Origin: Desulfosoma sp.
Lineage (GTDB): Bacteria > Desulfobacterota > Syntrophobacteria > Syntrophobacterales > DSM-9756
Direction of reading: 5' to 3'
Assembly: GCA_037481835.1 (NCBI GenBank)
Contig: JBBFKW010000002.1
Coordinates: forward strand, 128,001-192,000
Length of the DNA stretch: 64,000 bases
Part shown: positions 16,656-41,396 of the stretch, piece after piece
Position numbering within the stretch: the stretch's first letter is position 1
Layout: each line of letters starts with the position of its first letter
The notes under the pieces: model-generated
The model's database searches: none
What the model saw: only the letters and a program-made list of their open reading frames with translations
What the model was told of the DNA's origin: nothing
Position numbers and translations under genes: made by a program

Positions 16656-18869
16656 ATGGTGCGCAGTATTGCGGTGATGACCAGCGGCGGGGACGCGCCG
16701 GGCATGAACGCCGGGGTTCGGGCGGTGGTTCGGCGCGCTTTGGATTGCGGGTTAAAGGTCTACGGCATCCAAAACGGCTATGAAGGGCTGGTAAGCGGCG
16801 GTGGATCCATTCGCCCCATGGGGTGGAACGACGTGGGCGGGATCCTTCCCCGGGGCGGAACGTTTCTCGGCACGGCCCGGTCCGAAAGATTCCGCAGTCG
16901 CGAAGGTCGGCTCGAGGCCGTGAGGAATCTTGTGGCCGTGGGGATTGACGCCCTTGTGGTGATCGGAGGCGACGGGTCGCTCATGGGAGCCCATATCCTG
17001 GCGGAAGAGTGGCCGTCCCACGTGGAAGCGCTTCAGAAGGAAGGCGTATCGGAAGCGCCCCAAGCCTTGCACGTCGTGGGTCTTCCCGGATCCATCGATA
17101 ATGACCTCTACGGGACGGACATGTCCATCGGGGTGGATACGGCGCTGAACCACATCGTGCAAGCCATCGACGATTTGACGTCCACGGCGGCGTCCCACCA
17201 GCGCACCTTCGTGGTGGAAACCATGGGGCGCCACTGCGGATACCTGGCCCTCATGGGGGCTCTGGGCGGTGGAGCCTCCTGGGTGCTTGTGCCCGAAGAG
17301 GAATTGGACCTGCGCTGGCATCAGAAGATGACGCGGGCCATCGAAAAGGCGCGAGCCATCGGGCGGCCGCACCAGATGGTCGTGGTGGCGGAAGGGGCCC
17401 GCCATCCCGACGGACTGCCGATTCGAACCGAGGAACTCAAGAAGATCCTGGCGGACCGCTTGGGCATTGATGTGCGTGCGACCGTCTTGGGCCACGTGCA
17501 GCGGGGCGGGGCGCCTTCGGCTTTCGATCGGATTCTCGCCACCCGCCTGGGTGTGGCCGCCGTGGACGCCCTGGTGCAAGCGGGGGACGAGCCGCTTCGG
17601 CACATGGTCGGGCTCCAAAAGAACCGAGTGGTCATGACCCCTCTGATGGAAGTGGTGGAAAAGAGCCAAGCGGTGGGCAAGCAGATCGACCAGGGATACT
17701 ACCAGGAAGCGCAGAAACTTCGCGGGGAAGGATTCATTCGCACCCTGGAACTCATCAAGACGCTCACGCGCATCGAGCCGGCGGCGGCGACGCATACGGA
17801 CGGCGCCGTAGCGCTGCTCACCGGAGGAGCCGACGCCCCGGGGATGAACACGGCGGTGAGCATCGCCGCCCGGTGCCTCATGAACGAAGGGTTTCCCGTA
17901 CTGGGGGTGCGGGACGCCTTCTGGGGCCTGATCCGAGGGGAATTCATGCCCCTGGAATGGAACGAGCTGACCTCGTGGGTTAACCGGCCCAGTTCGGATC
18001 TGGGCACCATGAGGCACGACCTCAGTGCGCAAGACGTGGAAAGGGTGGCCCAAACCATCGAAAAGCACCAAATCCGGGGACTCATCGCCATCGGCGGCTT
18101 GGGGACCTACCAGAACGTGGTGCGGCTGGTTGAGAGGGCCTCCGAGCTGAAACCTTTGGCCATTCCCATGGTCTTGGTCCCGGCGACCATCGACAACAAC
18201 CTTCCGGGAACGGAATTCACCATCGGCTGCGATACGGCGCTGAACAACATCGTGCAGGCCATCGACAAGATCCGGCACACGGCGGGTGCCACCAAGCGCA
18301 CCTTCGTGGTGGAAGTCATGGGGCGCCAGTCCGGGTTTCTCGCCTTGATGGCGGCTTTGGCTTCCGGAGCGGAAAAGGCCTATCTGCCGGAAAAAGGCAT
18401 CACGCTGGCCGAACTGAACGAAGATGTGGCCGCCCTTCGAGAAAGCTTCCAGTGCGGAAAAAGGATGGTCATCTATCTACGAAACGAGAATGCATCGCGG
18501 CATTACACCACGGATTTCATCAGCCGCCTTTTGGAGGAGGAAAGCCATGGGCTGTACCAGGTGCGAACCGCCATCCTCGGGCATCTCCAACGGGGCGGCG
18601 TCCCGTCGGCCTTCGACCGCATTCTCGCCAGCCGCATGGGGTCGACGGCGGCTCGAGAAATGAGCGCCATGCTGCGCCAAGACCGGCGGGACGTTTTGGT
18701 CCTGGGCCAACGGGGCAGGGGTTTGGAGGTCTTTCCGTTGGCGCAGATTCTTCAAGAGATTGATTTCAAAGAGGGTCGTCCCAAAGCGGAATGGTTTCTT
18801 GAGCTTACGGCCATGGCGGAGGCGCTGGCCAAGCACGCGCCGGTCTGCCGCATGGACGAGTCGAGGTGA
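16656..18869 (+). CDS. pfkA: ATP-dependent 6-phosphofructokinase, internally duplicated (eukaryote-like architecture)
   Basis: Two PFK halves: TSGGDAPGMN/GGDGS/GSIDND/MGRHCG/LGHVQRGG and TGGADAPGMN/ATIDNN/MGRQSG/LGHLQRGG. Confidence 0.92.
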   Translation: MVRSIAVMTSGGDAPGMNAGVRAVVRRALDCGLKVYGIQNGYEGLVSGGGSIRPMGWNDVGGILPRGGTFLGTARSERFRSREGRLEAVRNLVAVGIDALVVIGGDGSLMGAHILAEEWPSHVEALQKEGVSEAPQALHVVGLPGSIDNDLYGTDMSIGVDTALNHIVQAIDDLTSTAASHQRTFVVETMGRHCGYLALMGALGGGASWVLVPEEELDLRWHQKMTRAIEKARAIGRPHQMVVVAEGARHPDGLPIRTEELKKILADRLGIDVRATVLGHVQRGGAPSAFDRILATRLGVAAVDALVQAGDEPLRHMVGLQKNRVVMTPLMEVVEKSQAVGKQIDQGYYQEAQKLRGEGFIRTLELIKTLTRIEPAAATHTDGAVALLTGGADAPGMNTAVSIAARCLMNEGFPVLGVRDAFWGLIRGEFMPLEWNELTSWVNRPSSDLGTMRHDLSAQDVERVAQTIEKHQIRGLIAIGGLGTYQNVVRLVERASELKPLAIPMVLVPATIDNNLPGTEFTIGCDTALNNIVQAIDKIRHTAGATKRTFVVEVMGRQSGFLALMAALASGAEKAYLPEKGITLAELNEDVAALRESFQCGKRMVIYLRNENASRHYTTDFISRLLEEESHGLYQVRTAILGHLQRGGVPSAFDRILASRMGSTAAREMSAMLRQDRRDVLVLGQRGRGLEVFPLAQILQEIDFKEGRPKAEWFLELTAMAEALAKHAPVCRMDESR

Positions 18870-19406: not shown

Positions 19407-21476
19407 CTAAACCGGGACGATGCGGCACGGGATGGCCCGAACCTGCGGTGTCGCCATCACGGGGTCCGTTCGGTCCACCGCCGTAAGCATGTTGAGGTTG
19501 GCCGTCTCCCAACCCCGCAAAGGATCGTGGGTCCTTTCCGGGAACCACCAGCCGTAGTCGGCCGACACCACGGGGTGTTTCAGCGCGTCCGTGAGATGAG
19601 CCCGTTGCTGGATCCGACCGTAGGCCGTCTCGATGGCCACGTGCTGTCCTTCGTCGATGCCCAGCCGAGCTGCCGTATCCCTTGGAATCCACACGACGGG
19701 TTCCGGGTGTTTCTTGCGCAGGCTCTCCAGGTGCCTGTAGGCCGAGTGGAAAAAGTCCTTGGGCTTTCGGCTGGTGAGCAGCAGGGGGAAATCGTCCGGC
19801 AGGGGCCCGGGGTCCTCGGCTGCCGGAAGCGCCTCAAATCCCCACTTTTCCAGGAGGCTTGATCGCAGTTCCACCTTGCCGGACGGGGTCTTGAATCCTT
19901 TGTCCCGGTACGTTCGAAAGCGCTTGGGTCCGAACAGCACTCCTTTTTGGCAAAACTCGGCGTAAGAGATCCCGGATGGAGCCAGGATGGCTTCCAGGAT
20001 GGCCTCGGGACCGTCCCAAAACCGATGGGCCAGTCCCAGGCGTTTTCCCCATTCGTTCAGGATCCACAAGTCCGAACGGCACCCTTCGGGAGGATCCACC
20101 ACCTTGGGGCGTGCCGTGACGAACCCGTGGGGCAGGCCGTAGTGGCCCATATCGTCGTATTCCATGGGCAGGGCAATGGGGAGCACCACGTCCGCCAGCG
20201 CGGCCGTGGGCGTCATGACCTGGTCGGCCACAGCCAGAAAATCCAAGGACTCCAGAGCCCTCTTGACGCTCGGGGCCTCGGAGTAACTGAGCATGGGGTT
20301 GGTGCCTTGCACGTACAGGCAGCGGATGGGGTAGGGGGCCTGCTTGAGAATGGATTGCACCACCATCCAGCTGGGCACGGAAATGAGGCGCGGCAGGATG
20401 CCGTGGTGGTGGTTGAGGAGCTTCCTGGGACGATCGGGAAAATCATCCAGAGCGATCATGTCCTTGAGGGGCAAGAGGCGCGGCATTTCAGTGCGCACAT
20501 TGCCCCCGGGTTCTTCCAAATTGCCCGTGACGGCCATGAGATGCACCAGGGCGCGACACGTGTGGGCGCTGTTGGGGGTGTGTTCCACGGCGTTACCCCA
20601 CTGGAGGCACGCCGGGCGGGATCGGGCGTAAAGCCGTGCCGCCGAGACGATCTTTTCCCTGTCCACCCAGCAGCCGGCGGCGACCCGATCGGGCGTATAG
20701 GATTGCACGGCCCGGCGCAGATCGTCGAAGCCCACCGTCCACTGATCCACGAACTCCCGATCGTACAGTCCCTCTTCCAAGATCACATGGAGGAAGCCCA
20801 TGGCGAGCAGGTCGTCCGTGCCGGGGCGGATCTGGAGCCACAGGTCGGCTTTTTCGGCCGCACCCGTCCGCATGGGGTCCACGACCACAAGACGCGCACC
20901 TTGCTTGAGGCACGCATGGAGATGGCCTCCCAGAACCCCTTCCTCGTTGGTGGCCGAAGGGTTACTCCCCCACAAGAGCACGCACCGAGACGGGCCGTGC
21001 AAATCGGCTACGGGAAAGAATCCGCAGGTGACGAGAGCCATCTGTTCCCGAGGCATGTGACACACGTGCTGGCTTCCGGCCACGTTGGGGCAGCGGAGCA
21101 GGTTCGCCAGGCGAAGGAGCAGGAAAAATTCCGGGCCCTTGGGCGCCCCCTGGGCGAAAGCGAGGCTTTCCGGTCCCGTGGCCTGCAGCGCCTTGGAAAA
21201 GGCCTGGGTCAGTTGGCCCAGAGCCTCATCCCAGGAAATGGGTTTCCACAGGCCGGAGCCTCGAGGCCCGTTTCGCTGAAGGGGCTGAGTGAGCCTCAAG
21301 GGATGTTCCAAGCGCTCTTTCGCGGAAAGGCCTTTGCGGCAATGCCAGCCACGGCTGAAAGGATCGTCGGGGTCCGGCGCCACCGTGTCGATACGGCCGT
21401 CCTCGACGGCCACCTTCAAGCCGCAGCCGCCATGATCAAAGCGGGCACAATGGGTCCGAAACCATTCCTGCGCCAT
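19407..21476 (-). CDS. Molybdo/tungsto-bis-PGD oxidoreductase (DMSO reductase family, acetylene-hydratase-like)
   Basis: N-terminal Fe-S region HCARFDHGGC...CRKG, WGSNP, VVDP, IRPGTD, TPSGKVE, FFHS; no signal peptide seen. Confidence 0.88.
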   Translation of the reverse strand: MAQEWFRTHCARFDHGGCGLKVAVEDGRIDTVAPDPDDPFSRGWHCRKGLSAKERLEHPLRLTQPLQRNGPRGSGLWKPISWDEALGQLTQAFSKALQATGPESLAFAQGAPKGPEFFLLLRLANLLRCPNVAGSQHVCHMPREQMALVTCGFFPVADLHGPSRCVLLWGSNPSATNEEGVLGGHLHACLKQGARLVVVDPMRTGAAEKADLWLQIRPGTDDLLAMGFLHVILEEGLYDREFVDQWTVGFDDLRRAVQSYTPDRVAAGCWVDREKIVSAARLYARSRPACLQWGNAVEHTPNSAHTCRALVHLMAVTGNLEEPGGNVRTEMPRLLPLKDMIALDDFPDRPRKLLNHHHGILPRLISVPSWMVVQSILKQAPYPIRCLYVQGTNPMLSYSEAPSVKRALESLDFLAVADQVMTPTAALADVVLPIALPMEYDDMGHYGLPHGFVTARPKVVDPPEGCRSDLWILNEWGKRLGLAHRFWDGPEAILEAILAPSGISYAEFCQKGVLFGPKRFRTYRDKGFKTPSGKVELRSSLLEKWGFEALPAAEDPGPLPDDFPLLLTSRKPKDFFHSAYRHLESLRKKHPEPVVWIPRDTAARLGIDEGQHVAIETAYGRIQQRAHLTDALKHPVVSADYGWWFPERTHDPLRGWETANLNMLTAVDRTDPVMATPQVRAIPCRIVPV

Positions 21477-21502
21477 GGTTTTTTCCTCATAGACCTTCAC
21501 AG

Positions 21503-21844
21503 TCACGATGGGAGGTTCGCTCTCGCCTTTTCCAGCAGGACCGTCAATTCCAAGGATTTTTGGGCGATGGTTTCCAAGGTCTCCGCGACCTCGGGAAGGC
21601 CTTCCGAGCGGGCGCGCTGCGCCCACAGGCGGTAGGAGGTCACGTGATCGTGGTTATGATGCACCCAATGATCGAGCATCTTGGCAAGTTTTTCCTTGGC
21701 GGACAGGGGGCTGGGGGAGTGTTCGTCTTGGGACGCTTCTGCTTCGGGGCCGGCGTGCGTCGCGTGCCCGGGGTCGTGGTGATGGTGGTGGTGTCCGTGT
21801 CCGTGCCCGTGATGATGGGAGTCGTCATGGTGATGATGTGTCAT
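21503..21844 (-). CDS. His-rich putative metal-binding protein
   Basis: 17 His in the first 30 aa, then helical HWVHHNHDH motif; operonic spacing with neighbours. Confidence 0.8.
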   Translation of the reverse strand: MTHHHHDDSHHHGHGHGHHHHHHDPGHATHAGPEAEASQDEHSPSPLSAKEKLAKMLDHWVHHNHDHVTSYRLWAQRARSEGLPEVAETLETIAQKSLELTVLLEKARANLPS

Positions 21845-21868: not shown

Positions 21869-22672
21869 TCACTTCATGTCTGTGGTGTGGACCCAGAAGA
21901 CCGCGCCGATTTCCACGGGCTTGGGAACCCCGTCTTTTTTGAGCTTCCACGGAGCTTCGCTGAGCGCCGCAAAGCCCCACCAGCCGGCTCGAGGCATGGC
22001 ATAGGTGAACACGCCGTTGCGGTCGGCTTTGACCACCTGGGTCACGTACGGGTCCGAAGGGGCCTTGACTGTGGAGGGATTATCCGGCGATTCGTTGAGG
22101 TATTCCACTTCCACCTCGGCGTAAGGGACGGGTTTTCCTTTGAGGAGCACCCGGCCGGTAAAGACATTTCCGGTCCATAGGCCGTAGGGCCTGGTCAGCG
22201 GCACGATTTCCGTCTCCAAACCGACCTCTGCGTCCCAGCCTTCCTCCAATCCCAGGGCCTGCACGCACACCTTGGTGTAGTGCACGATGTACTTGTCCTC
22301 GGCGGGTTCCCAGTAGGGAGCCGGCTCCAAGAAGAAGAGATAGTCGCCGGGCTTTCGGATGGCGGTGGTCGTCTCCCAAAACGTAAAATCGCGATCCTGA
22401 TCCGGGGCACGCCCTTTACGGGCCTGGAGGGATGGGGTAAGGTCCGTTTTCTGACCCTTGTGGAGGAAACCGAACCGTTTGGGTTTTTCCATGTCCATGT
22501 AGTGGCCTTCCATGGGATGGAGGAACTTGGCCTGAACGGTCACGGTCTTGGGGTCATCGGAGGTGACGATGTCGTCGGAGGGGAGGATCAGCCCGAAATG
22601 GGCCACGGCGCGATCGGCGCCCATGAGAAAACAGGACAAGAGAGCAAGGCACACAACGGTCAAGCGTTTCAT
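21869..22672 (-). CDS. DUF4198 / NikM-like periplasmic Co/Ni transport-associated protein
   Basis: Signal peptide ending [38 protein letters not shown]. Confidence 0.85.
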
Positions 22673-22802
22673 GGCAACCTCCTTCACTGAAGCGGGCCGA
22701 TGGGTTTGGGAAAGCTTCTGCGTCATGAGCCGGGTCTTCGTGACCGGAGGTTCATGGGAGGGTTCCACCGGGGAACCTTGTGGGGTTTGTGGGGTCGTGC
22801 CG

Positions 22803-22860
22803 GGAAAGTTTCAACTTTCCATTACCGGCCTAATGTGAAGGAAAACGCAGGACCTGTCAA
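22803..22860. promoter_or_regulatory. Divergent promoter region with perfect palindrome
   Basis: GGAAAGTT-TC-AACTTTCC (22803-22820); minus strand TTGACA-N17-CACATT; plus strand TAATGT at 22831-22836. Confidence 0.5.
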
Positions 22861-22876
22861 GGCGCGGAGGACAGAA

Positions 22877-23149
22877 GTGACAAAGGAAAGATCCGTGGCA
22901 GGAAAAACGGCGCAACAGGACGACGGCATTGCCGATTACCGGGGCGATTGTTGAGCGGGCTTTCTGGACGTAAGTTTACGTCTTCGGTTTTTGCGGCCGG
23001 GCGAAGGGTTCCGCATCCGCGTCACGGCCGACCAGCGCCCCAAGATGGAACGGGTGGTGGCCCACAACGGCGGCATTGTGGCCGACCTGCTCCAAAAGCC
23101 AGACGCTGTGGAAATGCTCATCGTCAGAAAACCCAAAGAGCCCTCCTAA
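22877..23149 (+). CDS. TusA/SirA-like sulfur-carrier-fold selenoprotein (Sec at TGA 22952-22954); not in the ORF track
   Basis: GGAGG RBS + GTG; read-through gives MTKERSVAGKTAQQDDGIADYRGDCUAGFLDVSLRLRFLRPGEGFRIRVTADQRPKMERVVAHNGGIVADLLQKPDAVEMLIVRKPKEPS; SECIS-like hairpin 3' of the UGA; selC is in the window. Confidence 0.75.
22955..22994 (+). promoter_or_regulatory. Candidate bacterial SECIS element
   Basis: Stem GGACGUA/UACGUCU (22966-22983) with apical loop AGUU starting 19 nt after the UGA. Confidence 0.65.
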
Positions 23150-23352
23150 CGTTCGGTTTGCCACTCCCTCGTTTCCGCTCACGAGGCTTTCTTTGCGCCT
23201 TTGCGCAAGACCTTTTTACCTCGCGCCAGGCCCCAAGGCGCTGTTTTGTTTGACATGAGCCTCCACGTCTCCACCCTGGGGGATCTCATGAAAAATTTCC
23301 CTTGACACGACCGGGCGGGGCTTGTTACCCGTAGAGCACAATTTTTCATGAG

Positions 23353-23514
23353 CGGTCAGGTGCTCGGCGCTTAAAAGGGAATCCCGTGAGAGTCGGGAGC
23401 GGTCCCGCCGCTGTGAACGGGGACGGCGCCTGCAGGAATGCCACTGGCGACGAAAAATCGCCGGGAAGGTGCAGGCGTTCGGATGATCCGTGAGCCAGAA
23501 GACCTGCCTGATCG
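23353..23514 (+). ncRNA. Cobalamin (B12) riboswitch
   Basis: AAAAGGGAATCCCGTGAGAGTCGGGAGCGGTCCCGCCGCTGT, GCCACTG...GGGAAGG, B12 box GAGCCAGAAGACCTGCC; P1 CGGTCAGG/CCTGATCG; upstream of cbiK. Confidence 0.95.
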
Positions 23515-23580
23515 CCGGGAAACACGGCACGGGTGCATGCCGTCACGTTTCCGCCGCAAGGACCAAGCGAAACTGGGTGC

Positions 23581-23616
23581 AATCCTTAGAGCTGCCGGCT
23601 CTAAGGATTTTTTTTT
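23581..23616 (+). terminator. Intrinsic terminator, likely riboswitch expression platform
   Basis: AATCCTTAGAGC-loop-GCTCTAAGGATT followed by a T run, between the aptamer and the first gene. Confidence 0.85.
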
Positions 23617-24037: not shown

Positions 24038-24955
24038 ATGCTCAAAAGGTTCGTGAAACATCCGGGGGTTCTTCTGGGCGTTCTTGGTCTTTTGGTGGTT
24101 TTTTGCGGAGGCTTCGGGGTGGATAAGGCTTTTGCCAAACACGGGGCGGATCGAGAAGGCAAGCAGGCGATCCTGGTGGTGGCTTTCGGCACCAGTGTGC
24201 CGGAAGCGAAGAAGGCGTACGATGCCATCGACAAGCGCATCGGGGAGGCTTTCCCCGGCATGGAAAGGCGCTGGGCGTACACGTCGGGCATCATCCGGAA
24301 AAAGCTCCGATCCCAGGGAACCGAGATCCATTCCCCGGAAACGGCTATGGCCAAACTCATGGAAGACGGCTTTACTCATGTGGCCGTTGTGTCCCTGCAC
24401 GTCATTCCCGGGGCCGAATTCCACGACCTCTACACGAACGCTCGGCTGTTCACCCAGATGTCGGGCGGGTTCAAAAAGGTGACGTTCGCCATGCCGCTCC
24501 TTTCGTCCACTGAGGACATGGCGGACGTCGTGCGCGCCGTCACGGCCGCCGTCCCTCGGGAGCGCCGCCCTGAAGAAGCGGTGGTCTTCATGGGGCACGG
24601 GAGCGAGCATCACCCGGCCGACGCTTTCTATACGGCCATGGACGCCCTTTTTCAGAAGCAGGATCCCAACATGTTCCTTGCCACCGTGGAAGGCTCGCCA
24701 GGCTTCGACGATGTGCTGCCCGTCCTCGAGAGCCGCAAAATCAAGAAAGCCTACCTCATCCCCTTCATGGTCGTCGCCGGGGATCACGCCCGAAACGACA
24801 TGGCGGGAGACGACGCAGACAGCTGGAAGTCCCGCCTCGCCGCCAAGGGCATTGCGGCGGTCCCCGTTTTTCGGGGTATGGGTGAAATTCCCGATGTGGT
24901 GGACGTTTGGGTCCGTCACCTGCGTTCGGCCGTGGAGGCCTTGGGGACGCCGTAA
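24038..24955 (+). CDS. cbiK: Sirohydrochlorin cobaltochelatase CbiK with N-terminal signal peptide (periplasmic type)
   Basis: ILVVAFGTS, AYTS, HVIPGAEF, MGHG, VAGDHARND; hydrophobic leader; RBS AAGGAG. Confidence 0.92.
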   Translation: MLKRFVKHPGVLLGVLGLLVVFCGGFGVDKAFAKHGADREGKQAILVVAFGTSVPEAKKAYDAIDKRIGEAFPGMERRWAYTSGIIRKKLRSQGTEIHSPETAMAKLMEDGFTHVAVVSLHVIPGAEFHDLYTNARLFTQMSGGFKKVTFAMPLLSSTEDMADVVRAVTAAVPRERRPEEAVVFMGHGSEHHPADAFYTAMDALFQKQDPNMFLATVEGSPGFDDVLPVLESRKIKKAYLIPFMVVAGDHARNDMAGDDADSWKSRLAAKGIAAVPVFRGMGEIPDVVDVWVRHLRSAVEALGTP

Positions 24956-41297: not shown

Positions 41298-41396
41298 TGG
41301 CGGAAGTGCATGGGAATCGAACCCACCTGGGACGCCCCTCAGCGCCCCACACCGGATTTGAAGTCCGGGAGCCCCACCAGTGAGCTTGGCACTTCC
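41298..41396 (-). tRNA. selC: tRNA-Sec(TCA)
   Basis: 8-bp acceptor GGAAGTGC/GCACTTCC, anticodon arm CCGGA-CT-TCA-AA-TCCGG, long variable arm, GTTCGATTC, GCCA end. Confidence 0.96.

What the first reader, a model, noticed from the sequence alone, without database searches (positions are those of the whole stretch)
22877..23149. Hidden TusA/SirA-like selenoprotein with a Cys-Sec pair and SECIS hairpin
Seen: the ORF track stops at TGA 22952-22954, but the frame continues 64 more codons to TAA 23147-23149. With the GGAGG RBS and GTG at 22877 this gives a 90-aa protein (...ADYRGDCUAGFLDVSLRLRFLRPGEGFRIRV...EMLIVRK). A 7-bp hairpin with loop AGUU starts its loop 19 nt after the UGA, and selC is at 41298-41396. 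Established: TusA-family proteins have D-x-x-G-x-x-C-P, then a helix, PGE and a strand, and end in LIRK-like residues; bacterial SECIS elements lie just 3' of the UGA with a G in the apical loop. Inference: Sec sits at the TusA persulfide Cys position, is preceded by a vicinal Cys, and lacks the CPxP prolines. This points to a distinct S/Se-carrier or redox subfamily that standard gene callers would miss. SirA-like selenoproteins are not unprecedented in general; whether this CU variant is described needs a search.
Basis: partly seen in the sequence, partly recalled or inferred. Interest (0 to 1): 0.88.

Follow-up and report, generated by a model that had tools for sequence, protein, structure and literature searches.

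The report
Hidden TusA-like selenoprotein with Cys-Sec pair
A small gene that annotation cuts in two at a UGA codon really encodes a 90-residue selenocysteine protein, with the fold of the sulfur carrier TusA and an unusual adjacent cysteine-selenocysteine pair at its active site.

Summary
GTG 22877 to TAA 23149 reads through one UGA (22952-22954) to give a 90-aa protein.

- **Conservation:** The same in-frame UGA, always preceded by Cys, is present in all 28 homologous loci examined, which come from several families of the phylum. Protein similarity and third-position codon variation occur on both sides of it.
- **SECIS:** A 7-bp hairpin lies 11 nt after the UGA. It is kept in 96.9% of pair cells, has compensatory changes at 3 of 7 pairs and has an invariant loop G.
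- **Sec machinery:** selA, selB, selC and selD are present.
- **Fold:** AlphaFold gives a confident beta-alpha-beta-alpha-beta-beta fold. Its best solved matches are YeeD/TsuB, TusA and a SirA-like protein. Sec falls on TusA's persulfide cysteine, but the CPxP box is absent and Pfam TusA scores stay below threshold.
- **Annotation and literature:** No homologue with Cys at the Sec site was found among 1.84 billion representatives. Databases hold only truncated or mistranslated pieces. I found no description in print.
- **Function (not shown):** The gene sits next to the chelatase gene cbiK in 14 of 20 related loci. I favour a TusA-like sulfur/selenium relay or redox centre (about 40%) over a cobalt/iron chaperone for CbiK (about 30%).

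The parts
22866..22870 (+). Shine-Dalgarno-like GGAGG, 6 nt before the GTG start
   Evidence: Read directly from the sequence. All 20 related loci have a start codon 17-41 codons before the UGA, most of them with a purine-rich stretch before it.
22877..23149 (+). Selenoprotein gene: 90 aa with UGA read as Sec26; TusA-like fold
   Evidence: Translation. Homologues with the same in-frame TGA. Alignment A1. AlphaFold model with pLDDT 85.5 and pTM 0.72. Fold matches. Third codon positions vary most on both sides of the TGA.
22949..22954 (+). Cys25-Sec26 dyad (TGT TGA) at the N-cap of helix 1
   Evidence: Invariant in 28 of 28 loci; the Cys codon is TGC in 17 and TGT in 11. The helix spans residues 25-38 in the model. 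Sec aligns with the TusA Cys.
22966..22983 (+). SECIS hairpin: stem 22966-22972 / 22977-22983, loop 22973-22976, invariant G at 22974
   Evidence: RNAalifold predicts the same 7 pairs on 28 sequences. 96.9% of cells are paired, against 26.5-64.3% for slid partners. Three pairs have compensatory changes. 0 of 500 shuffles reach the observed covariation score. G29 is an invariant column.
23167..23209 (+). Two terminator-like hairpins just after the stop codon
   Evidence: Consensus scan only. This is a weak hint that the gene forms its own transcription unit in this genome.
23341..23525 (+). Cobalamin riboswitch aptamer between the selenoprotein gene and cbiK
   Evidence: Rfam RF00174, 117.5 bits against a gathering score of 31.5. 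The same arrangement occurs in L002-L007. A 13-bp terminator-like hairpin follows at 23581-23609.
24038..24955 (+). cbiK (sirohydrochlorin chelatase family) with a signal-peptide-like N-terminus; conserved downstream neighbour
   Evidence: Pfam PF06180, 242.4 bits. NCBIfam SiroCoChCbiK, 215 bits, which is below its 400-bit cut-off. It has 33 extra N-terminal residues relative to the CbiK copies of family f3. A cbiK lies downstream on the same strand in 14 of 20 loci.
21869..22768 (-). DUF4198 protein gene, divergently transcribed upstream neighbour
   Evidence: Pfam PF10670, 206.4 bits. Present in the same place in 7 of 20 loci, all in the window's own family.
19407..21626 (-). Molybdopterin oxidoreductase gene of unassigned subfamily, downstream of DUF4198
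   Evidence: Pfam PF00384, PF01568 and PF04879. All NCBIfam matches are below their cut-offs. Also found next to the gene in L002 and L013.
41298..41396 (-). selC (tRNA-Sec), needed to read the UGA
   Evidence: ARAGORN; Rfam RF01852.

Best explanation
**Shown or strongly supported**
- 22877-23149 is one gene for a cytoplasmic 90-aa selenoprotein.
- SelB reads UGA 22952-22954 as selenocysteine, with the help of the hairpin 11 nt downstream.
- The protein has the two-layer beta-alpha-beta-alpha-beta-beta fold of the TusA/SirA sulfur carriers.
- Sec26 occupies the place of TusA's persulfide-carrying cysteine at the N-terminal cap of helix 1. An invariant Cys25 lies next to it, and the CPxP capping box is missing.
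- The family is stand-alone and is found only with Sec, never with Cys, at this site.

**Inferred mechanism (about 40% for this part)**
- The Sec selenolate attacks sulfane sulfur or selenium offered by a rhodanese- or desulfurase-type donor and holds it as a Se-S(e) adduct, as TusA holds a persulfide.
- Cys25 can resolve the adduct by closing a selenenylsulfide with Sec26. This would make the dyad a redox-active relay or reductase centre rather than a passive carrier.
- Why the gene stays next to cbiK is not explained by this reading.

**Confidence.** The value given is for the whole statement, cargo included. The identity part alone I put at about 0.93.
For: **Selenoprotein reading**
- With the read-through protein, 22 of 61 related genomes matched. 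21 of the 23 places listed contain an in-frame TGA.
- All 20 loci kept show D-[YH]-[RQ]-x-D-C-U at the same place, with similarity on both sides.
- In a sample of 401 genomes of the phylum, 13 matched. 13 of the 14 places contain a TGA, and 8 of 8 new loci keep C-U.
- Mean pairwise differences at codon positions 1, 2 and 3 are 0.26, 0.20 and 0.58 upstream of the TGA and 0.42, 0.31 and 0.56 downstream of it.
- 12 of 20 family genes end in TGA, so TGA is an ordinary stop in these genomes.
- The hairpin is kept in 96.9% of 196 cells, with 3 of 7 pairs compensatory and an invariant loop G.
- selA, two selB-like genes, selD (itself with a TGA) and selC are present. selA scores above its cut-off in 10 of 10 other carrier genomes tested.

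**Fold**
- In the model, 67 of 90 residues have pLDDT of 90 or more.
- Of 48,161 representative chains, ranks 1-3 are YeeD/TsuB (Z 9.6), SirA-like 3hz7 (Z 8.9) and TusA 3lvj_C (Z 8.8).
- TusA 1dcj gives Z 9.3 and rmsd 1.9 over 69 residues, with model 18-86 on chain 11-81. That offset puts Sec26 on residue 19.
- hhalign against the genome's four canonical TusA paralogues is collinear over 68 columns and aligns U to their Cys.
- In the Pfam TusA match of L004, residues 13-78 lie on profile positions 4-70. That places its U19 on profile position 10, which is the Cys.

**Cargo**
- Rhodanese-fusion proteins lie next to the gene in L019 (CoA-disulfide-reductase-like plus rhodanese) and L020 (metallo-beta-lactamase fold plus rhodanese).
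- A selenium-metabolism-associated LysR regulator (NF040786, 260-273 bits against a cut-off of 250) lies directly upstream in L030-L032.
Against: - No experiment shows Se in the protein, and no RNA run was available.
- At the sequence level the TusA relation is weak. There is no Pfam hit for the window protein at E up to 1. The best family member scores 21.6 bits against a cut-off of 28.6. hhalign gives E 0.017 and probability 2.7%. A profile search of PDB sequences gave nothing.
- The structural Z of 8.8-10.2 lies only 1-2 units above generic IF3-C/Alba-like folds at Z about 7-8.6.
- A vicinal resolving Cys is not a feature of known TusA carriers.
- The commonest conserved neighbour is cbiK (14 of 20 loci). 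The other recurring neighbours are DUF4198, NikA-like binding proteins, a ZIP transporter and a cobalamin riboswitch. None of these points to sulfur chemistry.
- The rhodanese neighbours occur in only 2 of 28 loci.
Confidence: 0.42

Rival explanations
1. The protein is the same as above, but it carries a metal. The Cys-Sec dyad, with the nearby invariant Asp residues, binds Co(II) (or Fe(II) or Ni(II)) in a sulfide-rich cytoplasm. It then hands the metal to the sirohydrochlorin chelatase CbiK, or otherwise serves cobalt and corrinoid handling.
For: - cbiK follows on the same strand in 14 of 20 related loci, spanning six genera of two families.
- In L010, L012 and L014 (one genus) the cbiK start overlaps, or lies 1 nt after, the selenoprotein stop. 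The gap is 52 nt in L011 and L016. These CbiK copies lack a signal peptide.
- In those genomes the linked CbiK is a second paralogue.
- A cobalamin riboswitch lies between the two genes in 7 loci.
- Other neighbours fit metal handling: DUF4198 in 7 loci, NikA-like family-5 binding proteins in 4 loci and a ZIP transporter in L020.
- Haft and Gwadz argue that CU and CC motifs mark metal-binding sites in several selenoproteins, including the corrinoid protein HgcA (passages read).
- The 2022 family list includes Sec forms of a CobW-like protein and of BtuF (table read).
- D20, D24 and D31 are invariant in alignment A1.
Against: - In the window's own family, CbiK carries a signal-peptide-like N-terminus and is the genome's only CbiK. 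The selenoprotein has no signal peptide, so the two would sit in different compartments.
- Terminator-like hairpins and the riboswitch separate the two genes here.
- None of the 8 more distant loci has cbiK within 1.5 kb.
- CbiK scores above its cut-off in 52 of 61 relatives, but the selenoprotein was found in only 22, so CbiK does not need it.
- D24 and D31 are not kept in the most distant members.
- No TusA-fold metallochaperone is known (recalled, not searched).
Confidence: 0.3
2. The protein is the same, but it has another role that neither cargo model captures. It could be a selenium-status or redox sensor, or the partner of an unidentified enzyme, with its neighbours differing by lineage.
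For: - Neighbourhoods differ strongly between lineages. They include cbiK, LysR_Sec_metab, rhodanese fusions, agmatinase with Dus, PRPP synthetase and others.
- Two database homologues, P0038 and P0040, have neither Cys nor Sec at the dyad yet keep the rest of the fold signature.
Against: An invariant Cys-Sec pair at the known active site of a carrier fold, kept in 28 of 28 loci at the cost of Sec decoding, argues for direct chemistry at that site.
Confidence: 0.2
3. It is not a selenoprotein. The UGA is a real stop, and the region holds a short upstream ORF plus a separate downstream ORF starting at TTG 22991, or else a decaying gene.
For: - Gene callers produce exactly these pieces: P0012 (66 aa) and P0002 (52 aa).
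- The hairpin also fits a terminator-like pattern.
- On its own the hairpin is not more stable than shuffled sequence.
Against: - The TGA is fixed at one codon in 28 of 28 loci across several families.
- The coding signature continues across it.
- The predicted helix 1 spans the UGA, and strand 1 lies before it. The 52-aa piece would therefore lack two of the six fold elements.
- The hairpin stem shows compensatory changes.
- A decaying gene would not keep one and the same stop in every lineage.
Confidence: 0.03
4. The UGA is read through, but not as Sec. It could be read as Trp, Cys or Gly by near-cognate or suppressor decoding.
For: Database forms carry W at this position. I read this as table-4 gene calling, but I did not see their DNA.
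Against: - 12 of 20 family genes end in TGA themselves.
- A SECIS-like hairpin with an invariant loop G sits at the spacing known for SelB-dependent decoding (the spacing rule is recalled).
- The full Sec machinery is present.
- No homologue encodes Trp, Cys or Gly by a sense codon at this site in the 28 loci whose DNA I read.
Confidence: 0.03

Closest known systems
TusA (YhhP/SirA) sulfur carrier, Pfam PF01206; PDB 1dcj, 3lvj
   Same: - About 70-residue beta-alpha-beta-alpha-beta-beta fold.
- A D-x-R-G-x-x-[C/U] stretch leads into helix 1, with the reactive residue at the helix N-cap.
- A P-G-E-like turn precedes strand 2, and the C-terminal strand ends in a basic residue.
- Z 8.8-9.3 with rmsd 1.9-2.2 over 68-69 residues.
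   Different: - Sec replaces Cys, and an extra invariant Cys lies directly before it.
- There is no CPxP capping box.
- Pfam scores stay below the gathering cut-off.
- A disordered N-terminal tail of 17-40 residues is present.
- The genome also has four canonical CPxP TusA paralogues.
YeeD/TsuB of the YeeE-YeeD thiosulfate uptake system (PDB 8k1r, 8j4c)
   Same: It is the best structural match (Foldseek E 2.8e-4; Z 9.6-10.2). It is a TusA-family protein that takes a sulfur compound on its Cys.
   Different: No YeeE-type membrane partner was seen next to the gene in the loci I scanned. YeeD has a single Cys and no Sec.
YedF / 'SirA-like' proteins linked to selD (Zhang 2008, PMC2432076; Lin 2015, PMC5322559; passages read)
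   Same: They have a TusA-type domain tied by comparative genomics to selenium metabolism. This genome has such genes beside selD.
   Different: They are Cys proteins with CPxP, often fused to a DsrE-like domain. They are not selenoproteins and do not neighbour cbiK.
Vicinal Cys-Sec centres: the C-terminal G-C-U-G of animal thioredoxin reductase (recalled), and the CU motifs of SaoL, SaoB, SaoC and HgcA (Haft and Gwadz 2022 preprint, passages read)
   Same: They have an adjacent Cys-Sec pair. In thioredoxin reductase it forms a redox-active selenenylsulfide. In the Haft families it is proposed to bind soft metals.
   Different: The folds and contexts are unrelated. Here the pair sits at a helix N-cap inside a TusA fold, not on a flexible tail or in a MerB- or binding-protein-like pocket.
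Sec-containing CobW-like and BtuF-like proteins (table of PMC9312934, read)
   Same: They are selenoproteins of anaerobes tied to cobalt or cobalamin handling, as the cbiK and riboswitch context suggests here.
   Different: They belong to different families (COG0523 GTPase; BtuF binding protein) with UxxC or CxxU motifs. No homology was found.

Membership tests
Bacterial SelB/SECIS-dependent selenoprotein | In-frame UGA conserved at the same codon in homologues, with protein similarity on both sides | tested here: met
   28 of 28 loci. The coding signature holds on both sides of the UGA.
Bacterial SelB/SECIS-dependent selenoprotein | Stem-loop immediately 3' of the UGA with a conserved G in the apical loop | tested here: met
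   A 7-bp hairpin 11 nt after the UGA. 96.9% of cells are paired, 3 pairs are compensatory, and the loop G is invariant.
Bacterial SelB/SECIS-dependent selenoprotein | selA, selB, selC and selD present in the genome | tested here: met
   selA is above its cut-off in 10 of 10 other carrier genomes tested.
Bacterial SelB/SECIS-dependent selenoprotein | Homologues with Cys in place of Sec (a usual discovery criterion, not a requirement) | tested here: not met
   None was found among the 57 clusters from 1.84 billion representatives. Of the 14 forms I read that span the site, 12 have C-W and 2 have T-R or T-L. None was found in 61 plus 401 genomes.
Bacterial SelB/SECIS-dependent selenoprotein | Selenium shown in the protein (75Se labelling or mass spectrometry) | not testable with these tools
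   No experiment was possible.
TusA/SirA family (PF01206) | Score at or above Pfam's gathering cut-off (28.6 bits) | tested here: not met
   The window protein has no hit at E up to 1. Among 29 family members scanned, 4 gave weak hits of 14.6-21.6 bits.
TusA/SirA family (PF01206) | Two-layer beta-alpha-beta-alpha-beta-beta sandwich | tested here: met
   This rests on a predicted model, not a solved structure. TusA-family chains take ranks 1-3 of 48,161, but by a margin of only 1-2 Z units.
TusA/SirA family (PF01206) | Reactive Cys at the N-cap of helix 1, after D-x-x-G-x-x | tested here: met
   Sec takes the place of the Cys. The register is given by structure, hhalign and Pfam coordinates.
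TusA/SirA family (PF01206) | C-P-x-P capping box | tested here: not met
   The window has C-U-A-G-F. No Pro follows the dyad in any of the 19 aligned members.
TusA/SirA family (PF01206) | Accepts a persulfide from a cysteine desulfurase or rhodanese | not testable with these tools
   Only indirect evidence: rhodanese-fusion neighbours in 2 loci.
CU-motif metal-binding selenoproteins (as proposed by Haft and Gwadz 2022) | Adjacent Cys-Sec dipeptide | tested here: met
   Invariant in 28 of 28 loci.
CU-motif metal-binding selenoproteins (as proposed by Haft and Gwadz 2022) | Binds a soft metal at the dyad | not testable with these tools
   Context only: cbiK, riboswitch, DUF4198, NikA-like proteins and ZIP.

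The most novel reading that the evidence does not exclude
The protein is an obligate-selenocysteine metallochaperone on a TusA scaffold. Its Cys-Sec dyad captures Co(II) (or Fe(II)) in a sulfide-rich cytoplasm and passes it to the sirohydrochlorin chelatase CbiK. That would make it the first dedicated metal-delivery protein of the anaerobic cobalamin/sirohaem branch. It would also be the first metal-trafficking use of the TusA fold.
Probability: 0.27. Interest if true: 0.82.

Novelty: new variant of a known kind. Interest (0 to 1): 0.62.

Why it matters
- **Annotation gap:** The finding adds a selenoprotein family that current annotation does not see. RefSeq names a 59-aa fragment 'hypothetical protein', and NCBIfam release 20 has no model for it.
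- **No Cys form:** The family seems to have no cysteine form. This is unusual, because the 2022 review states that almost all selenoproteins have Cys homologues (PMC9312934, passage read). It also explains why searches based on Cys/Sec pairs would miss it.
- **New chemistry on a known scaffold:** A vicinal Cys-Sec centre sits on the best-known sulfur-carrier fold. This gives a small, tractable protein for asking what selenium adds to sulfur or metal trafficking.
- **Testable link:** Its conserved place beside cbiK and a cobalamin riboswitch gives a testable link between selenium use and cobalt-tetrapyrrole metabolism in sulfate-reducing and syntrophic anaerobes.
- **Practical use:** The conserved D-Y-R-G-D-C-U motif and its hairpin can be used to correct gene calls in many genomes and metagenomes.

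Tried and rejected
**Searches that found nothing**
- A profile search of PDB sequences with A1 gave no match at E up to 10.
- NCBIfam on the 19 members gave only a chance-level YscQ hit (E 0.015, 14.5 bits against a cut-off of 230).
- No RNA holder was listed for the region, so expression could not be looked at.
- Cluster look-up of 10 family proteins gave only 'hypothetical' or 'uncharacterized' names, and no accession linking them to a published family.

Binding to CbiK therefore remains untested.

**Leads examined and set aside**
- The weak second match in G275 (L038, no TGA, E 7.8e-4) lacks the motif. I treat it as spurious.
- Two weak matches without TGA among the relatives (G012, G040:C3, E about 0.009) were not followed.
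- L018 is cut short after about 27 residues past the UGA. It may be a frameshift or a decaying copy, and I left it out of alignment A1.
- The long proteins P0052 and P0056 (E about 1e-5, partial stretches) were not examined. I do not count them as fused forms.

**Readings rejected**
- The upstream in-frame ATG at 22700 is not the start. It would overlap the divergent DUF4198 gene, and the region is not conserved.

**Literature searches**
- 'SirA-like' with 'selenoprotein' gave 4 papers.
- 'TusA' with 'selenocysteine' and 'selenoprotein' gave 7 papers.
- 'CbiK' with 'selenoprotein' gave 5 papers.
- 'Syntrophobacter fumaroxidans' with 'selenoproteome' gave 8 papers.
- None of the passages I read describes this family.
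Full report
**1. The observation**

GGAGG lies at 22866-22870 and GTG at 22877. TGT-TGA lies at 22949-22954. After that the frame stays open for 64 more codons to TAA 23147-23149. Read with UGA as Sec, this gives a 90-residue protein.

A 7-bp hairpin (GGACGUA, loop AGUU, UACGUCU; 22966-22983) begins 11 nt after the UGA. By itself the hairpin is not remarkable. The 66-nt region folds no better than shuffles (z +0.90), and the pattern also fits a terminator scan.

tRNA-Sec lies at 41298-41396 on the minus strand.

Contigs of four other public runs, from three other studies, cover 22600-23202. One is identical, and three differ at 10-24 places. None differs at the TGA or in the hairpin. The four differences inside the gene are at 22920, 23032, 23128 and 23141.

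**2. Is the UGA decoded?**

- *Relatives.* I searched 61 related genomes in six frames with the read-through protein, and 22 matched. Of the 23 places listed, 21 contain an in-frame TGA. The two that do not are at E about 0.009.
- *Motif.* In all 20 loci that were kept, the TGA sits at the same codon, directly after Cys, inside a conserved D-[YH]-[RQ]-x-D-C-U-x-[GA]-[FY] stretch. There is clear similarity before and after it.
- *Phylum sample.* A profile of 19 members was searched over 401 genomes of the phylum and found 13 carriers. 13 of the 14 places contain a TGA. The eight new loci (L030-L037) again keep C-U.
- *Coding signature.* Across 27 sequences, third codon positions vary most on both sides of the UGA: 0.26, 0.20 and 0.58 before it, and 0.42, 0.31 and 0.56 after it.
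- *TGA is an ordinary stop.* 12 of the 20 family genes end in TGA, so the recoding is local.
  - 96.9% of 196 cells pair, against 26.5-64.3% when partners are slid.
  - Three pairs have compensatory changes.
  - No shuffle of 500 reaches the observed covariation score.
  - The second loop base is an invariant G.
  - The 11-nt spacing and the loop G agree with what I recall of the E. coli fdhF element and the bSECISearch model. The 2022 review says only that the element lies immediately 3' of the UGA (PMC9312934, passage read).
- *Machinery.* The genome has selA, two selB-like genes above the cut-off, and a selD that itself contains a TGA. selA is above its cut-off in 10 of 10 other carriers tested.

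I put the selenoprotein reading at about 0.93-0.95.

**3. What annotation sees**

The protein collection holds the window's gene as two pieces. One is a 66-aa ORF ending at Cys25 (P0012). The other is a 52-aa ORF from TTG 22991 (P0002). Close relatives appear as 50-62-aa C-terminal fragments. One of these is named 'hypothetical protein [Desulfosoma sp.]' / 'Uncharacterized protein, Desulfacinum infernum' by its sources.

A profile search of 1.84 billion representatives found 57 clusters at E up to 0.001. I read 16 of them.
- 14 span the site. Of these, 12 have Cys-Trp at the dyad. I take this to be TGA called under a Trp-reading table, but I did not see their DNA.
- The other 2 (P0038, P0040) have Thr-Arg or Thr-Leu, with neither Cys nor Sec.
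- None has Cys at the Sec position.
- That search has no length filter and gave no convincing fused form.

**4. Fold and family**

Pfam finds nothing for the window protein at E up to 1. NCBIfam finds nothing meaningful, and a profile search of PDB sequences finds nothing.

With the 19-sequence alignment, AlphaFold gives a confident model: pLDDT 85.5, pTM 0.72, and 67 residues at 90 or above. The first 15 residues are disordered. The secondary structure is strand 18-20, helix 25-38, strand 44-49, helix 54-63, and strands 66-73 and 78-84. Cys25-Sec26 therefore sit at the N-cap of helix 1.

| Search | Result |
|---|---|
| Foldseek | Best hits are YeeE-YeeD fusions (E 2.8e-4 to 6.2e-4). TusA (3lvj_C) and a SirA-like protein (3hz7) follow at E 0.014-0.035. 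|
| Second look | YeeD Z 10.2; TusA 1dcj Z 9.3 (rmsd 1.9 over 69 residues); 3hz7 Z 8.9; 3lvj_C Z 8.8 |
| Search independent of Foldseek, 48,161 representative chains | YeeD, 3hz7 and TusA are ranks 1-3 |

The margin over generic IF3-C/Alba-like folds (Z about 7-8.6) is only 1-2 units, so fold alone would not settle the family.

Three registers agree on the key point.
- Model 18-86 lies on TusA 11-81, which puts Sec26 on residue 19. I recall that residue as the persulfide Cys of E. coli TusA.
- hhalign against the genome's four canonical TusA paralogues is collinear over 68 columns, with U on their Cys and Cys25 on the residue before. The statistics are weak (E 0.017).
- In the sub-threshold Pfam TusA match of L004, residues 13-78 lie on profile positions 4-70. 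This places its Sec on profile position 10, which is the Cys.

Four of 29 family members give such weak TusA hits (14.6-21.6 bits against a cut-off of 28.6).

I conclude that this is a divergent branch of the TusA superfamily (about 0.85). It works from the same structural position but fails two formal membership features: the Pfam threshold and the CPxP box.

**5. Surroundings**

*In the window.*
- Upstream and divergent lie a DUF4198 gene (21869-22768) and an unassigned molybdopterin oxidoreductase gene (19407-21626).
- Downstream lie two terminator-like hairpins (23167-23209).
- Next comes a cobalamin riboswitch (23341-23525, 117.5 bits) with its own terminator-like stem (23581-23609).
- Then comes cbiK (ATG 24038 to 24955; PF06180, 242 bits).
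- This CbiK has a 33-residue N-terminus that looks like a signal peptide. It is the genome's only CbiK.

*Across the 20 related loci.*
- cbiK follows on the same strand in 14.
- DUF4198 lies upstream in 7, all in the window's own family.
- The riboswitch lies between the two genes in 7.
- In the sister family there is no riboswitch, and the linked CbiK has no signal peptide.
  - Its start overlaps, or lies 1 nt after, the selenoprotein stop in L010, L012 and L014 (one genus).
  - It lies 52 nt away in L011 and L016, and about 250 nt away in L017.
  - Those genomes have a second CbiK elsewhere.
- NikA-like family-5 binding proteins lie upstream in L009, L012, L014 and L018.

*Other contexts.*
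- Rhodanese fusions lie beside the gene in L019 and L020. L020 also has a ZIP transporter directly downstream.
- A selenium-metabolism-associated LysR regulator, above its curated cut-off, lies directly upstream in L030-L032.
- Agmatinase lies upstream and Dus downstream in L035-L037.

*Limits of the cbiK link.*
- None of the eight distant loci has cbiK within 1.5 kb.
- CbiK is above its cut-off in 52 of 61 relatives, while the selenoprotein was found in only 22. It is therefore an accessory to CbiK, not a requirement.

**6. Mechanism**

*Shown or strongly supported.* Sec insertion depends on SelB and a SECIS element. The protein has a TusA-type fold, with Sec at the carrier position and an invariant neighbouring Cys. 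It is stand-alone and has no signal peptide.

*Inferred.* The selenolate is the reactive atom. Two cargo models compete.
- **Relay model (about 40%).**
  - It rests on homology: every characterized TusA-family protein I know of carries sulfur on that residue (recalled).
  - It rests on the rule that Sec replaces catalytic redox Cys.
  - It rests on the rhodanese and LysR_Sec_metab contexts.
  - The vicinal Cys would resolve adducts through a selenenylsulfide, as in the Cys-Sec centre of thioredoxin reductase (recalled).
  - This model does not explain cbiK.
- **Metal model (about 30%).**
  - It explains cbiK, the riboswitch, DUF4198, the NikA-like proteins and ZIP.
  - It fits Haft and Gwadz's argument that CU motifs mark metal sites, including in the corrinoid protein HgcA (preprint 10.1101/2022.07.06.499078, passages read).
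  - It fits the existence of Sec forms of CobW-like and BtuF-like proteins (table read).
  - It must cope with a probably periplasmic CbiK in the window's own family, and with the lack of cbiK next to distant members.

**7. Known or new?**

- The 2022 review's 'complete list' of 87 prokaryotic selenoprotein families has no TusA/SirA (COG0425, PF01206) entry (PMC9312934, table read).
- The 'SirA-like' proteins of the selenium literature are Cys proteins near selD (PMC2432076 and PMC5322559, passages read).
- The 2025 deep-Sep paper names nine new families, none TusA-like in the passages I read. It notes that its pipeline may drop families without Cys homologues (PMC12013277).
- Haft and Gwadz list the CU-motif selenoproteins they know, and no TusA-like one is among them.
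- NCBIfam release 20 has no model for the family, and RefSeq carries a truncated fragment.

*Caveat.* The Olavius-symbiont paper reports unnamed families without Cys homologues (OS_HP2, OS_HP3) and further unassigned TGA candidates (PMC1976440, section 12 read). Their sequences and figures were not available to me, so I cannot exclude that this family was seen there without a fold assignment. Supplements were not consulted.

**8. Verdict**

This is a real, unannotated selenoprotein family. It is best described as a new Sec-only variant of the TusA scaffold with a vicinal Cys-Sec centre. It is widespread in sulfate-reducing and syntrophic lineages of the phylum and in metagenomes. Within the window's order it is conserved next to cbiK. 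Its function is open between chalcogen relay or redox chemistry and cobalt or iron handling. Interest is moderate to high for selenium biology. New bacterial selenoprotein families are still found regularly, which tempers the surprise.

Noticed in passing
window 23341-23609 and 24038-24955: A cobalamin riboswitch with a strong terminator-like stem controls a cbiK whose product has a signal-peptide-like N-terminus. This is the genome's only CbiK. A B12-regulated, probably exported chelatase-family protein suggests a role in cobalt or corrinoid uptake rather than cytoplasmic B12 synthesis.
   Followed up: partly
window 23164-23247: When public contigs were laid on the window, depth rose several-fold here and many contigs began or ended here. 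The short palindromic intergenic stretch, which holds the terminator-like hairpins, seems to be a repeated element in this and related genomes.
   Followed up: no
G000 contig C9: 78605-78808, 80257-81183, 84496-84678 (L023, L042, L024): selD, itself with an in-frame TGA, lies between a canonical CPxP TusA gene and a longer ORF with an N-terminal TusA domain. This recalls the published SirA-like/YedF-selD linkage.
   Followed up: no
G000 contigs C8:95294-97192 and C21:4209-6098: Two selB-like genes both score above the curated selB cut-off (411 and 277 bits against 242).
   Followed up: no
window 16656-18869 (+): A 737-aa tandem-domain phosphofructokinase scores above the cut-off of the 'eukaryotic-type' 6-phosphofructokinase model (TIGR02478, 829.8 bits against 708.4).
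   Followed up: no
database proteins P0038 and P0040: Two homologues of 72-73 aa keep the family's D-Y-R-x-D start and the rest of the fold signature. They have Thr-Arg or Thr-Leu in place of Cys-Sec, so this form lacks the reactive dyad.
   Followed up: no
L018 (genome G018): This copy keeps the C-U motif and the hairpin but diverges and stops about 27 residues after the UGA. It may be a frameshift or a decaying copy.
   Followed up: no
L030-L032: In another family of the phylum, the selenoprotein gene lies directly downstream of a LysR regulator that passes the curated 'selenium metabolism-associated' model NF040786.
   Followed up: partly
window 22966-22983: The SECIS hairpin is followed by a U-rich run and also fits the intrinsic-terminator pattern. 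Whether it attenuates transcription when Sec decoding fails was not examined.
   Followed up: no
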